The notes under the pieces: generated by a model
Seen by the model: only the letters and a program-made list of their open reading frames with translations
Databases searched by the model: none
Told to the model about the DNA's origin: nothing
Assembly: GCA_951406725.2 (NCBI GenBank)
Contig: OX597817.1
Span: 92,256,001 to 92,320,000, forward strand
Source of the DNA: Octopus vulgaris
Taxonomy: Eukaryota
Length of the DNA: 64,000 nucleotides
Reading direction: 5' to 3'
Part shown: one piece after another, positions 42,654-60,717 of the stretch
Layout: the number at the start of each line of letters is the position of its first letter
Numbering within the stretch: the stretch's first letter is position 1
Position numbers and translations under genes: made by a program

Positions 42654-43657
42654 ATGTGAAATAGAGAGATGAATAATCTTGTAGTAGATTAATCAAAAAT
42701 TAATCAAAAGTTTAACCGATACCTTAGTAGCAAAAATCACAGCAGTAAAACAGCACGGTTGGAGGTACAACCATATGGTGTTGCAACCGTGCGTTGGTGC
42801 GGATAATTGAAATTAGAACATTATTGGTGAATTGAAGAAATGGAGCTGAACGCAGATTGAACAGAAATCGTTTTATTTCATTCTACACGTGTTTCGAAAG
42901 GCACAAATTACCAAAATCCGATGGAATAATGGGACCATATTGTGTCTTTCTCTTCAGGAAGAAAATAGGAAATCCGTTGGAAAAACAAAAACAGAACAGA
43001 GGCGGAGCAAAAACAAATCGAACTATGCTCCTAAGAGCCCATGGCGAAACTGTTTATCAGTGTATGATGAGAACCGGTGGCTGAAGAATTCAACGGGTCG
43101 GGCATCGGTCAATCATGTGGGTGAGGGGGCGTAGATGTTCTTTGTGACCGAGAATAAAGTTCTGACTATTTAAGGAATATTGGATGTTTTATAAGGGGCG
43201 AGAAAAATCTACTTAGAGACGTGTGTGTGTGTATACTGTTCTATATACGTGTGTGTTGGCGTAGGGGTAGAAAACATTTTTTGTGTACGTGTGTGCGTTT
43301 GATCGTTCGGCTGTCAGTGGCTACTGCCGTGTTGACCGTTGGGTGGCAGAAAAAAATATACATCATGTTTTATGTGTGTGTGTGTTCTCATCTAAACCTG
43401 CCTTGTCAAGGAAACCCCCCGCTGTGAAAAAAACCAAGCCCCATTTGTCTTACAGGAGTAATTCCCCTTGCAGTGGTTAATCGTAGATATCTTAAAGGCT
43501 ATTTCAGAATTTGTTACCAAGGGCTATGGGTGCCGGTATTATTTATAAACGCTATTTAAAAGCCAGATAAGTGTAACGCCGCCAATGGGGGCATCGAAAA
43601 GCCGACTGTAAAAGCCCGTTTACCATCCGGCCTCTGCGTGTCTCCAATTCACCAATT
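42654..43657 (-). mobile_element. hammerhead-bearing non-coding pLTR/retrozyme-like element in (TA)n
   Basis: homologous to 50692-50980 (TTAACCGATACC...GTAGCAAA, CACGGTTG...ACCGTG); flanked by TA tracts. Confidence 0.7.
42874..42967 (-). ncRNA. type I hammerhead, 55-nt stem II domain, palindromic stem III
   Basis: TATTTTCTTC-CTGAAGA-GAAAGACACAA...TTGTGCCTTTC-GAAAC-acgt-GTA-GAATGAAATA. Confidence 0.85.
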
Positions 43658-43775
43658 ATGTATATATATATGTATATATATATATATGTATATATATATA
43701 TATGTATATATATATATATATGTATATATATATCTGTATATATATATGTATATATATATATATTATGTATATATC

Positions 43776-44154
43776 TCTCTCTATATAAACGGCAGTTTGT
43801 CTGTGCGTGTTTCTGTGTGTCTGTTTGCTTGTACCCTCACCCTGACCACGGCTTTCAACCGATTCTGATGAAACTTGACACACACATAGCCCAATGTCAT
43901 GATTCAAAACTAACGCAGCGAAAATTTTGAAAAGTTCCCCAGTTCTGAAAAAAATCGATAAATTCGACATGGGGTCGAGAATCAGGAATACGAACCACAA
44001 ACTGTCTAGGGGACGCAACTCTACCTTTTTTAAATCTCAAAAAAAAATTTACCATTTTTTTCCATTTTTTTGCTATTTTTTGGCTATAACTCTCTAAAAA
44101 TGCTTTATAGTTATTTCCCTTACAAACCTGAGCAACGCCGGGCGATACTGCTAG
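43776..44154 (+). mobile_element. non-autonomous Helitron, different 5' end but same 3' end
   Basis: 5' TCTCTATATAAACGGCAG; 3' CCTGAGCAACGCCGGGCGATACTGCTAG-T. Confidence 0.75.
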
Positions 44155-45740
44155 TATATGTATATATGTATATATATATGTATATATATATGTATATATA
44201 TATGTATATGTATATATATATGTATATATATATGTATATGTATATATATATGTATATATATATATATATATATATATATATATATGTATATATATGTATA
44301 TATATATATATGTATATATATATGTATATATATATATGTATGTATATATATATGTATGTATATATATATATGTATATGTATATATATATGTATGTATATA
44401 TATATGTATATGTATATATACATGTATATGTATATATACATGTATAAGTATATATTAATATATAAGTATATATATATATATATATATATATATATATGTA
44501 TATATTTATATATATATATATATGTATATATATGTATATGTATATATATGTATATGTATATATTATATATATATGTATTATATATATATATATATATATA
44601 TATATATATATATATATGTATATATATATATATATATGTATATATTGTGTGTGTGTGTATGTGTATGTGTGTGTGTGTGTGTATATATTATATTAAAAAT
44701 ATATATATATATATATATTATATATTATATTATTATTATATATTATATGTATATATATATATATGTATATATATATATATATATATATATATATATTATA
44801 TATATATATATATATATATATATATATATATATATATATATGTATATATATATATATATATTATATTATATATATGTATATATTATATATATATTATATG
44901 TATATATATGTATATATATATATATTTATATATATGTATATATATATATATATATATATATATGTATATGTATATATTTATATATGTGTATGTATATGTA
45001 TATATATATATATATATATATGTATATATTTATATATGTGTATGTATATGTATATGTATATATATATATATATATATTTATATATGTGTATGTATATGTA
45101 TATGTATATATATATATATATATATATGTATATATATATGTATATATATGTATATATATATATATATATGTATGTATATATATATGTATATATATATGTA
45201 TAAATATGTATATATATATATGTATATATATATGTATATATATGTATATATATATGTATATATATATATGTATATATATATATGTATATATATATATGTA
45301 TATATATATGTATATATATATATGTATATATATGTATGTATATATATGTGTATATTTATATATATGTATATATATATATGTATATATATGTATGTATATA
45401 TATGTGTATATTTATATATATATATATATATATATGTATATATATGTATGTATATATATATGTATATATATATATATATATATATATATATATATATATA
45501 TATATATATATATATATATATATATGTATATATATATATATATATATATATATATATATATATATATGTAATATATATATATATGTATATATATATATAT
45601 GTATATATATATATATGTATATATATGTATATATATATATGTATGTATATATATATATGTATATATATATATATAATATATATATATATGTATGTATATA
45701 TATATATGTATGTATATATACATATATAATATATATATAT
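44155..45740. repeat. long (TA)n/(TATG)n microsatellite
   Basis: direct reading. Confidence 0.97.
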
Positions 45741-46550
45741 AAAGTTTGCTTATTATTATTATTATTATTATTATTTTCAGCTTCGCCTCGTATTGCATAT
45801 TATTTCTCCATACAGGGGTTTTTTTTTTTCAATGGCGGCCCATTTTCGCGCGGTTCCACTATTTCCCTTCTTTCTCTCTCTCTTTTACGTTGTCTGCCAT
45901 CCCCCCTCTTCCTTTGCTAAGAGCATTTTTAAGCCAGCCCGTCATATTCCCGTGTCAGGCCGAAGAACGAAATGTTCCCAAGATAAGAGAGTCTTTCTAA
46001 TCTAATGTTGTGGTTGAGCTGTTTATTATTTATTATTATTACTATTATTATTAGTATTAGTATTGTCCCTTTGATCCTCGGTCAAAAGTTTGCTTATTAT
46101 TATTATTATTATTATTATTACTACTATTTTCAGCTTCGCCTCGTATTGCATATTATTTCTCCATGCAGGGGTTTTTTTCAATGGCGGCCCATTTTCGCGC
46201 GGTTCCACTATTTCCCTCTCTCTCTCTCCCTCTTTTACGTTGTCTGCCATCCCCCTCTTTCTTTGCTAAGAGCATTTTTAAGCCAGCCCGTCATATTCCC
46301 GGTGCACCCGCCCTTGCCCACCCCCACCACCAATACCGGATATCTCTATATTTTTGCTCCATCTATACCGGATGTCGCTTCTCCCACCACCATTATAGGT
46401 GTCTACTCTTCGAACGCCCCTCTTCAATACACTATTTCACCATGCATTACCCCTCTCTTGATATCCTACGTTCTACTTGCCTAGAACCTGTCATCATTTC
46501 TCTGAACCACCCCTCCCCACTGGTGCTCCCCTATATTTCTGCCCCCCCAC
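45741..46550. repeat. unclassified element with a 344-bp head-to-tail repeat
   Basis: 45741-45951 repeated at 46085-46301. Confidence 0.8.
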
Positions 46551-46554
46551 CCAC

Positions 46555-58892: not shown

Positions 58893-59942
58893 ATATATGT
58901 ATGTATGTATATGTATATATGTATATATATGTATACGTATATATATGTATACGTATATATATGTATATGTATATGTATATATATATATGTACATATATAT
59001 ATATGTATATATCTATATATATGTGTGTATATATATGTGTGTATATATATGTGTGTATATATGTGTGTGTGTATATATATATGTGTGTGTATATATATGT
59101 ATATATGTGTGTATATATATGTGTGTGTATATATATATGTGTGTATATATATGTATGTGTATATATATATATGTATGTATATATATGTATGTGTATATAT
59201 ATATATGTATGTATATATATGTATGTATATATATATGTGTATATATATATGTATATATATATGTATATATATATATATGTATATATGTGTATATATATAT
59301 GTATATATATATATGTATATATATGTGTATATATATATGTATATATATATATGTATATATATGTATGTATATATGTATGTATATATATATGTATGTATAT
59401 ATATGTATGTATATATATGTATATATATGTATGTATATATATATATGTATATATATATATATATATGTATATATATGTATGTATATATGTGTATGTATAT
59501 ATGTATATATATATATGTATATATATGTGTATGTATATATATATATATATATATATATATATATGTATATATATATATATGTATATATATGTATGTATAT
59601 ATATATGTATATATATGTATATATATATATGTATATATATGTATGTATATATATGTATGTATATATATGTATGTATATATATATGTATGTATATATATAT
59701 ATGTATATATATGTATGTATATATATGTATGTATATATATGTATGTATATATATATGTATGTATATATATATATGTATATATATGTATGTATATATATAT
59801 GTATGTATATATATGTTTGTATATATATATGTGTATATATATATATATATGTATGTATATATATGTTTGTATATATATATGTGTATATATATATATATAT
59901 GTATATATATATATATTTGTATATATATATATATATATGTAT
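58893..59942. repeat. (TA)n/(TATG)n microsatellite
   Basis: direct reading. Confidence 0.97.
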
Positions 59943-60088
59943 AAAATAAATATAAGAGAGTGGTCACTATATGGCTCACTCTAGCACCAGTTAATCCAAA
60001 AGGTTTCAACCACAAAAATACATGCTTCCATGAAAGTCAGTACGATCGTTAGCTCACACGGACAGGGCAAATAAAAAATAACAAAATA

Positions 60089-60184
60089 CAGATTATTTTG
60101 GGACAATTGTTTCGCTATTAATGAATTAAATGTAATTTTACTTACAATAAAATCCACTTGTAGCTCTTCAGCCAAAACTATCTG
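60089..60184 (-). ncRNA. type I hammerhead, canonical core, 51-nt stem II domain
   Basis: CAGATAGTTTTGG-CTGAAGA-GCTA...TAGC-GAAAC-aatt-GTC-CCAAAATAATCTG; cleavage predicted between 60102 and 60101. Confidence 0.9.
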
Positions 60185-60622
60185 GATGAAATCCACTCAA
60201 TCACACGCCAGATTTTACCATAACGATAAATACGCGTGTGGTTCAATTGATTACATCCGACGTTATAATTCAAATGCCCCAACTAACAGCGCGCCAAACT
60301 TTCACGGAAAACAAATACAGCATTTAGAAATAAATGCAGCATAATTATAATTAATTAATAAGGGTGAGAGAATTAGATACTAATTTAATAGTATATCTAT
60401 TCTACACCAAGTGGCCTAGTGCTCCGAGAAACCTGGATTATTATAATATTTTATAATATATTATAATATTTTTACAAAATAAATATAAGAGAGTGGTCAC
60501 TATATGGCTCACTCTAGCACCAGTTAATCCAAAAGGTTTCAACCACAAAAATACATGCTTCCCATGAAAGTCAGTACGATCGTTAGCTCACACGGACAGG
60601 GCAAATAAAAAATAACAAAATA

Positions 60623-60717
60623 CAGATTATTTTGGGACATTGTTTCGCTATTAATGAATTAAATGTAATTTTACTTACAATAAAATCCACTTGTAGCTCT
60701 TCAGCCAAAACTATCTG
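60623..60717 (-). ncRNA. type I hammerhead, second unit (loop III aat)
   Basis: identical to 60089-60184 except a 1-nt deletion in loop III. Confidence 0.85.

What the first reader, a model, noticed from the sequence alone, without database searches (positions are those of the whole stretch)
42874..60717. Unusual hammerhead architecture: 46-55 nt stem II domain with a 2-bp palindromic stem III
Seen: the segment between CUGANGA and GAAA is 55 nt (42896-42950), 54 nt (50906-50959), 46 nt (53462-53507) and 51 nt (60114-60164). Stem III is only AC-N4-GU with self-complementary ACACGUGU, ACAUGUGU (G-U pairs) or ACAAUUGU. In the 533-bp family stem II could branch into two small hairpins. Established: short palindromic stem III favours cleavage as a double hammerhead (newt satellite 2, ASBVd), and Penelope-associated hammerheads usually have short stem II. 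Inference: these are dimer-dependent ribozymes with an extra stem II module, possibly a protein-binding or tertiary-contact element, that standard descriptors with short loop limits would miss.
Basis: partly seen in the sequence, partly recalled or inferred. Interest (0 to 1): 0.75.

Follow-up and report, generated by a model that had tools for sequence, protein, structure and literature searches.

The report
Long-armed hammerhead ribozymes in animal repeats
Five hammerhead-type motifs, predicted to be self-cutting RNAs, sit in two families of non-coding repeats (likely Penelope-mobilised) in this animal genome; each carries a 46-55 base second arm that a published search pattern cannot match, so similar ribozymes have likely been overlooked in other animal genomes.

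Summary
Observation confirmed. Five complete type I hammerhead motifs lie on the minus strand (5 observed, 0 in 200 shuffles), with stem II domains of 55, 54, 46, 51 and 51 nt. Stem III is AC-N4-GU in four; the fifth lacks one base. They belong to two repeat families that do not align outside the core. Stems I and II covary within each family. The long arm is an unbranched hairpin, not two hairpins; Rfam reads one copy as a canonical type I hammerhead with 39 nt inserted in loop 2. The elements are non-coding, (TA)n-flanked, tandem or inverted, as Penelope-type insertions are: most likely non-LTR retrozymes. A double hammerhead is thermodynamically favoured, but strict dimer dependence and a protein-binding module are unsupported: the arm is no more conserved than the rest of the unit. 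Precedents exist (a 54-nt arm in a spike-moss element; the CChMVd minus-strand internal loop 2), so this is a new variant of a known kind. Found on the way: a third repeat family in the same interval has hammerhead blocks in the non-circular SGC order, which my searches did not find reported in animals. Nothing was assayed.

The parts
42874..42967 (-). Hammerhead A (family A/B): core 42951-42957, stem II domain 42896-42950, predicted cut 3' of 42884 (GUA)
   Evidence: Rfam Hammerhead_1 14.8 bits, E 0.76
42657..43660 (-). Element A, about 1 kb, (TA)n on both sides; 27-nt inverted arm 43634-43660 matching 42819-42845
50879..50981 (-). Hammerhead B (family A/B): core 50960-50966, stem II domain 50906-50959, predicted cut 3' of 50894 (GUC)
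50693..51150 (.). Element B: direct copy plus inverted partial copy (111-nt arms 50836-50946 and 51040-51150, 94%); the inverted copy holds the 3' half of the hammerhead without CUGANGA
51293..51373 (-). Fragment A': GAAA/stem III half of hammerhead A, 98.6% identical to 42831-42901, between (TA)n runs
53438..53526 (-). Hammerhead C (533-bp family): core 53508-53514, stem II domain 53462-53507 with U-U at its base, predicted cut 3' of 53450 (GUA); weakest folder, probably decaying
53291..54130 (.). Element C: one 534-bp unit bounded by a 52-nt direct repeat (53291-53342, 53825-53876) plus an inverted partial copy to 54130 that has lost GAAA and stem III
60088..60185 (-). Hammerhead D1 (533-bp family): core 60165-60171, stem II domain 60114-60164, predicted cut 3' of 60102 (GUC)
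   Evidence: Rfam Hammerhead_1 29.1 bits (gathering 34), E 1.4e-5
60622..60718 (-). Hammerhead D2: as D1 but one base missing from the stem III palindrome (rare variant or assembly error)
59945..61042 (-). Element D: about 2.06 tandem 533-bp units, 99.6% identical, (TA)n on both sides; predicted to fold as a stable circle (z -5.6)
48490..48566 (-).
49327..49403 (-). Second copy of the family E SGC candidate (partial tandem of the same element, 48321-49415)

Best explanation
These are type I hammerhead motifs, predicted to self-cleave, in two non-coding repeat families that are likely non-LTR retrozymes copied by a Penelope-type element, and their long stem II is an unbranched hairpin likely grafted into loop 2 of an otherwise canonical ribozyme. 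Proposed working: a tandem or read-through transcript carries two or more hammerheads; the self-complementary stem III octamers of two copies pair into an 8-bp helix (double hammerhead; predicted); cleavage releases a unit-length RNA (533 nt in C/D) that is probably ligated into a highly paired circle (inferred from coral, mussel and axolotl retrozymes); a Penelope-type reverse transcriptase/endonuclease copies it into (TA)n from fixed internal starts, giving tandem units, terminal repeats and inverted 5' pieces (architecture seen; enzyme inferred). In C/D the base of the arm keeps canonical docking geometry (helix I 6 bp then U; helix II 4 bp then an internal loop that begins CA and ends A), so the first internal loop probably serves as loop 2, and the distal hairpin is probably one arm of the structured circle, kept for folding, not a dedicated catalytic or protein-binding module.
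For: Motifs beyond chance. Covariation between C and D: 5 of the 7 core-proximal stem I pairs change on both sides and stay paired though only 3 of 14 letters are identical; RNAalifold finds stems I and II unprompted. Named structures: 88% and 82% of cells paired against 28-53% when slid; 6 and 7 pairs with two-sided change. Stem II folds better than shuffles in D (z about -4), B (-2.8) and A (-1.8). Rfam RF00163 aligns D1 with a 39-nt insertion inside the consensus loop 2; the loop-1 5' U / loop-2 3' A contact and an internal loop 2 are documented (PMC2632901). In public contigs laid on unit D, 10 of 551 positions vary at 8% or more; the only one with two alternative letters is N7, the free position of CUGANGA, in 3 of 3 deep runs; the only other variable position inside the ribozyme is unpaired. 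Double hammerhead -56.6 against -45.4 kcal/mol for two active monomers in D1. Tandem, tail and inverted architecture in (TA)n matches Penelope-type insertions (PMC8557442). A GIY-YIG-like remnant lies in the window.
Against: No cleavage, ligation or expression was shown. Covariation rests on 3 sequences per family (two of them partial), and shuffle counts of 5-9 of 500 are not probabilities for related sequences. Absence of variants at paired positions is weak (about 1.3 expected from 10 sites). C folds poorly: stem II z +0.4, active monomer 2e-5 of the ensemble, double hammerhead less stable than its free fold. D2's palindrome is broken (D1/D2 duplex -2.3 kcal/mol), so the window's one tandem pair is a poor dimer as assembled. 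The docking geometry fits C/D, fits B loosely and does not fit A. No autonomous partner was linked by sequence. Element A as a whole is not unusually structured (z -0.4).
Confidence: 0.7

Rival explanations
1. The distal stem II extension is a dedicated module (binding site for the mobilising reverse transcriptase or a host protein, or a switch) that gates cleavage or packaging.
For: Length (46-55 nt) and an unbranched shape with two internal loops recur in two non-alignable families; the apical hexaloop is invariant in C, its inverted copy and D; one Penelope hammerhead needs its element's protein to cleave (PMC11167929).
Against: Arm identity is not above the unit's background (p=0.15), and equally long invariant runs occur elsewhere in the unit. 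No arm motif is shared between families. A loose-end variant changes the apical loop (table 7).
Confidence: 0.15
2. The extension is a tolerated insertion with no selected structure of its own, and most genomic copies are inactive relics.
For: C is degraded, the inverted copies are truncated and D2 is broken; few two-sided changes lie in the distal helices (0 in the apical helix of either family).
Against: The middle helix keeps pairing through one- and two-sided changes; the D family is young and near-identical across 6 coded organisms in 10 studies.
Confidence: 0.1
3. The motifs are non-circularly permuted CSG hammerheads whose cleavage block lies inside the long spacer, or descend from such forms.
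For: C has an internal cleavage block with 7-bp stem III and 4-bp stem I; several Naiad 'half cores' with similar spacers read as CSG by eye.
Against: No internal block in A, B, D1 or D2, and C's is not kept in its inverted copy; the downstream stem I covaries strongly.
Confidence: 0.04
4. Chance matches in AT-rich DNA.
For: Only 1 of the 4 motifs scanned in short windows reaches a clear Rfam hammerhead score and none reaches the gathering threshold.
Against: 5 observed against 0 in 200 shuffles; 0 of 302 control matches pass the filter; covariation.
Confidence: 0.01

Closest known systems
Metazoan non-LTR retrozymes with canonical type I hammerheads (Cervera and de la Pena 2020, PMC7229834; Li et al. 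2026, bioRxiv 10.64898/2026.07.22.740005)
   Same: Non-coding tandem units with one type I hammerhead each, low GC, 2-bp stem III with tetraloop, predicted stable circular fold; axolotl Amex2 also has a U-U at the base of helix II, like C.
   Different: Stem II domain 46-55 nt instead of a 4-bp stem with a short loop; unit 533 bp (170-400 nt in the 2020 paper, within the 51-972 bp of the 2026 preprint); expression and circularity not shown here.
Penelope-like element pseudo-LTR hammerheads (Cervera and de la Pena 2014, PMC4209133; Craig et al. 2021, PMC8557442)
   Same: Palindromic stem III, dimer model, (TA)n targets, partial tandems, inverted 5' pieces and terminal tail. PLE-X1_sMoe in Craig's File S2 has 54 nt between CUGAUGA and GAAA, flagged as deviating.
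   Different: No RT/EN frame in these elements; the published descriptor caps stem II near 24 nt; the spike-moss precedent has a different stem III and is a single table entry.
CChMVd (-) and ASBVd hammerheads (Dufour et al. 2009, PMC2632901; PMC6155905)
   Same: Domain II continues past an internal loop 2 that makes the loop 1 contact (CChMVd minus); helices I and II not delimited and weak helix III (ASBVd).
   Different: Viroids, not genomic repeats; here the extension is longer, with a second internal loop.
Non-circularly permuted hammerheads SGC/CSG (Eckert et al. 2023, PMC10085705)
   Same: Family E in the same interval has SGC order, 5-bp stem I, 3-nt linker and an extra helix, as described for HRIMA-1.
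   Different: The long-arm motifs themselves are ordinary CGS (type I). [quoted passage not shown]

Membership tests
Type I (CGS) hammerhead, structural class | CUGANGA, GAAA and NUH core in C-G-S order | tested here: met
   5 of 5 motifs
Type I (CGS) hammerhead, structural class | Helices I, II and III abutting the core | tested here: met
   Met in A, B, D1, D2; C has U-U at 10.1-11.1 (as axolotl Amex2); covariation
Type I (CGS) hammerhead, structural class | Site-specific self-cleavage | not testable with these tools
   Needs an in vitro assay
Type I (CGS) hammerhead, structural class | Loop 1 / loop 2 contact nucleotides (5' U of loop 1, 3' A of loop 2) | tested here: inconclusive
   Present with canonical helix lengths in C and D, shifted in B, absent in A (folds; motif)
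Rfam RF00163 Hammerhead_1 | Score at or above gathering (34 bits) | tested here: not met
   D1 29.1, A 14.8, B and C no hit; not filed as RF00163 members
Metazoan non-LTR retrozyme | Tandem units each with a type I hammerhead | tested here: met
   D has 2 units (D2 palindrome short by one base); C is one unit with a 52-nt terminal repeat; no tandem seen for A/B
Metazoan non-LTR retrozyme | Non-coding, low GC | tested here: met
   No non-microsatellite frame of 120 aa or more in elements A-D; GC 0.28-0.38 over the ribozymes
Metazoan non-LTR retrozyme | Stable self-paired circular fold | tested here: met
   D z -5.6, C z -3.6 on the ribozyme strand; not met for element A folded whole
Metazoan non-LTR retrozyme | Expressed as linear and circular unit-length RNA | tested here: inconclusive
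   Only contigs of coded runs were available
Autonomous Penelope-like element | RT plus GIY-YIG frame between pseudo-LTRs | tested here: not met
   No such frame in elements A-D; a separate GIY-YIG-like remnant at 35824-36447 has a short-arm motif beside it
Penelope-type insertion (non-autonomous) | Partial tandems, inverted 5' copy, tail, (TA)n targets | tested here: met
   against PMC8557442
Published Naiad/Hydra consensus families (Craig et al. 2021) | Shared sequence with the consensus | tested here: not met
   Ten short motif searches found 0 hits; octopus Naiad ends read differ. Exact-word search only; line breaks can hide hits
Type CSG permuted hammerhead | Cleavage block between CUGANGA and GAAA forming stems I and III | tested here: not met
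   Absent in 4 of 5; marginal and unconserved in C
Type SGC permuted hammerhead (family E only) | S-G-C order with stems I, II, III, short linker and extra helix | tested here: met
   E1/E2: stem I 5 bp, stem III 4 bp (+2), stem II 4 bp with two G-U after one extra A, linker 3 nt, extra helix 7 bp
Type SGC permuted hammerhead (family E only) | Covariation and cleavage | tested here: inconclusive
   Three copies, no compensatory change; E3 has core and stem III mutations; cleavage untested

The most novel reading that the evidence does not exclude
Penelope-type repeats of animals hide a layer of working hammerheads that short-loop descriptors cannot see: long-armed type I forms (families A/B and C/D), a non-circularly permuted SGC form (family E, same interval) and CSG forms in Naiad elements. 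Naiads, reported to lack canonical hammerheads, would then carry permuted ones, and non-circular RNA permutations would be a feature of high-copy animal retroelements, not only of metatranscriptome RNAs.
Probability: 0.55. Interest if true: 0.8.

Novelty: new variant of a known kind. Interest (0 to 1): 0.58.

Why it matters
Counts of animal hammerheads rest on descriptors; the one I read caps stem II near 24 nt. A young multi-copy family that it misses means retrozyme surveys probably undercount, and my searches found no cephalopod retrozyme described. The D ribozyme is a natural test of whether an internal loop 2 can dock on loop 1 in a type I hammerhead, and of how far a 2-bp palindromic stem III enforces dimer cleavage. 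The side result bears on an open point in Craig et al. 2021, that Naiads proliferate without canonical hammerheads: it becomes testable with a few short transcripts.

Tried and rejected
Rfam at gathering score: 0 hits in 64 kb. An E-value scan of 42600-61100 was swamped by microsatellite hits (150 of 373 rows shown, none a hammerhead). No genome is held for this window, so no genome-wide alignment or copy number. Branched stem II rejected. CSG reading rejected for A, B, D. Identity with published octopus Naiads rejected. Homology between A/B, C/D and E: local scores within shuffle range; model R1 gives B only 21.5 bits, E 0.043, and misses A. Relatives in microbes and viruses: 54 viral, 119 metagenome (38 of 64 parts scanned) and 120 prokaryote loci (58 of 64 parts) matched the pattern; 0 of 302 matches passed the filter, and R1 found nothing in 100 of the 119 metagenome loci. 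These collections are not animal genomes and the pattern required G-C at the base of stem II. Expression: no RNA holder listed. Run X18 (guessed RNA) gave one 565-nt contig that closes on itself over the unit, but the same junction stands in DNA-type run X2, so it does not show a circular RNA. Summed depths are no copy number. Pfam did not name the GIY-YIG-like frame. Earlier scan findings: nothing for this genome, this sequence or permuted forms. Lunse et al. 2017 (RNA Biol 14:1499), the most relevant survey of Penelope-associated dimer hammerheads, is not held and could already show long-arm variants.
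Full report
Setting. The window is AT-rich eukaryotic DNA dense in (TA)n and transposon remnants. It looks to me like an octopus genome; that label is recalled from repeat style and comes from no call (the only taxon hint is a Mollusca-labelled cluster with 2 members of known phylum). 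No genome is held.

Observation. Stem III is AC-N4-GU with self-complementary octamers in four; D2 lacks one base. In the non-microsatellite part of the window 5 complete motifs stand against 0 in 200 shuffles. As an outside control, 302 matches to the core pattern in 293 viral, metagenome and prokaryote loci gave 0 that pass a stem I plus stem II filter which 4 of 5 window motifs pass.

Two families. A and B align (score 125, shuffle maximum 45), as do C and D (219, maximum 51); across families the scores are at shuffle level. C and D are 65% identical over a 533-534 bp unit. The long arm is therefore either very old or arose twice.

Shape of the arm. Each stem II domain folds as one unbranched hairpin with two internal loops: single-loop structures make up 5000 of 5000 samples for D, 4999 for A, 4997 for B and 4722 for C. 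Stability against shuffles: D z about -4, B -2.8, A -1.8, C +0.4. Between C and D the stem I strands share 3 of 14 letters, yet all 7 core-proximal pairs are kept, 5 by two-sided change; RNAalifold on the two whole units recovers stems I and II without constraints and places the ribozyme at the tip of a longer conserved rod. In A/B the two basal helices of stem II show 4 two-sided changes in 10 pairs. These counts rest on three sequences per family, the apical helices show no two-sided change, and the arm is no more conserved in sequence than the unit (34 of 46 against 324 of 495, p=0.15).

What the arm is. Rfam RF00163 aligns D1 at 29.1 bits (gathering 34) by treating 39 nt as an insertion between CA and AAUA of the consensus loop 2. 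C and D have helix I of 6 bp followed by U and helix II of 4 bp followed by an internal loop that starts CA and ends A. Those are the canonical helix lengths (PMC4209133) and the nucleotides of the reverse-Hoogsteen loop 1/loop 2 pair; CChMVd (-) uses an internal loop 2 in this way (PMC2632901). I infer that the first internal loop is the docking element and that the distal part is an appendage. B fits loosely (5+5 bp, CA/CA loop); A does not.

Evidence from other copies. Unit D is held by 20 runs from 10 studies and 6 coded organisms at 0.59-0.88 of its words. Laying four runs gave 2279, 1131, 672 and 1 contigs, mostly 95% or more alike: a young multi-copy family. Ten of 551 positions vary at 8% or more. 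The only one with two alternatives is 60167, N7 of CUGANGA, the core's free position; the other inside the ribozyme (60148) is unpaired. The lack of changes at paired sites is not significant by itself. D2's missing base is not among the common indels, so it is rare or an assembly error.

Dimer or monomer. The 2-bp stem III costs +2.4 kcal/mol as a hairpin, while the octamers form -6 to -10 kcal/mol homoduplexes. The double hammerhead beats two active monomers by 11-15 kcal/mol in all four tested, is the exact dimer minimum for D1, and lies within about 2 kcal/mol of it for A and B; for C it is less stable than the free fold. But the same stem III type is called typical of invertebrates, axolotl Amex2 cleaves 22% as a monomer, and coral and mussel monomers cleave at 0.8 and 0.1 per minute (PMC7229834). 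'Dimer-enhanced' is the safer prediction.

The carriers. D is about 2.06 tandem units; C is one unit with a 52-nt terminal direct repeat plus an inverted partial copy; B and A have inverted 5' arms of 111 and 27 nt; all sit in (TA)n and none encodes a protein. This is the Penelope insertion pattern (PMC8557442). The D and C units fold as stable circles (z -5.6 and -3.6). The best fit is non-LTR retrozymes, which a 2026 preprint derives from Penelope pseudo-LTRs. Shown: motifs, covariation, architecture. Predicted: folds and dimer preference. Inferred: cleavage, circularisation, mobilisation. No autonomous partner was identified.

Comparison with print. The 2014 descriptor allows a stem II of 3-7 bp and a loop of 3-10 nt, so these motifs would be missed. 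A long arm has precedent: Craig's File S2 lists a spike-moss element with 54 nt between the core halves, marked as deviating. Searches for hammerhead with octopus, retrozyme with cephalopod, 'extended stem II', and Penelope with stem II and dimer found no description of these families; the library lacks most subscription papers, and Lunse et al. 2017 could not be read. Seen: PMC4209133 parts 1-2 of 4 and supplement passages (its file 1 not searched); PMC8557442 passages, supplement parts 1, 2, 24 and searches; PMC7229834 passages and sections 13-15; PMC10085705 passages and sections 13, 15; PMC2632901, PMC6155905, PMC6765202, PMC11167929, PMC13725137 passages; the 2026 preprint parts 1-2 of 5, its supplements closed. 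Unseen supplements may list long-arm motifs.

A lead that came out of the comparison. Craig et al. noted Naiad 'half cores' 35-50 nt apart. I tested whether the window's motifs are the same thing. They are not: their cleavage block is downstream. Read by eye, 4 of the 6 half-core ends shown are instead CSG permuted hammerheads. The window's own family E (48321-49415; older copy 20410-21437) has the blocks in SGC order with a 5-bp stem I, a 3-nt linker and an extra helix, the features described for HRIMA-1 (PMC10085705; window). Its stem II is weak, thresholds were set after the fact, and three copies give no covariation, so it is a candidate. Searches for non-circular permutations with Penelope, and Naiad with hammerhead, returned no paper whose title, abstract opening or passages read make this link.

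Verdict. Real, non-random type I hammerhead motifs of likely retrozymes with an unusually long unbranched stem II: a new variant of a known kind. Interest 0.58, raised by the permuted-hammerhead lead, which would deserve about 0.8 if confirmed.

Noticed in passing
window 48321-49415 and 20410-21437 (minus strand): Family E, a ~1 kb non-coding (TA)n-flanked partial-tandem repeat, has hammerhead blocks in non-circular SGC order with 5-bp stem I, 3-nt linker and an extra 7-bp helix. 2 matches (one element) against 0.003 per shuffle for any order, thresholds chosen after seeing it. The copy near 20614-20661 is decayed; no covariation available.
   Followed up: partly
PMC8557442 supplementary File S5; not in the window: Read by eye, 4 of the 6 Naiad 'HHR_half_core' 3' ends shown (Parc, Nbra-3, Hpol, Smim) form complete CSG hammerheads: stem I 5-6 bp, II 4-5 bp, III 6-11 bp, plus an extra helix. 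Esco, and Ovul/Obim, show S-G-C order with stems I and III but no convincing stem II. Dst-3 showed nothing in the stretch displayed; Dst-4 was not viewed.
   Followed up: partly
window 35824-36447 (-), 37151 (+), 36005-38283: GIY-YIG-like C-terminal remnant of a Penelope-type frame (atlas 0.96-0.97, PF01541 in 18% of one cluster) with inverted and direct repeats and a short-arm minimal hammerhead-like motif whose core has A6 changed to U.
   Followed up: partly
window 57867 (+): A second short-arm minimal hammerhead-like motif (4-bp stem II), a useful contrast to the long-arm forms.
   Followed up: no
window 42819-42845, 50836, 51293-51303: In family A/B the inverted arms and fragment A' stop at the same homologous point, about 60 nt 3' of the cut, while full copies run 200-230 nt past it: possibly two fixed reverse-transcription starts with an unusually long tail, which holds a conserved hairpin.
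   Followed up: partly
window 54063-54130 (+): The inverted copy of C has lost GAAA, stem III and the cut site by a deletion between two TTAA words.
   Followed up: no
window 16804-19406, 14551-15651, 49654-50390, 52018-52710, 54250-55131, 61438-62324: LINE reverse-transcriptase remnants (PF00078 at 16804-18969) and several truncated copies of another LINE-like 3' end; 62-63 bp tandem arrays at 19802, 25609 and related sites.
   Followed up: no
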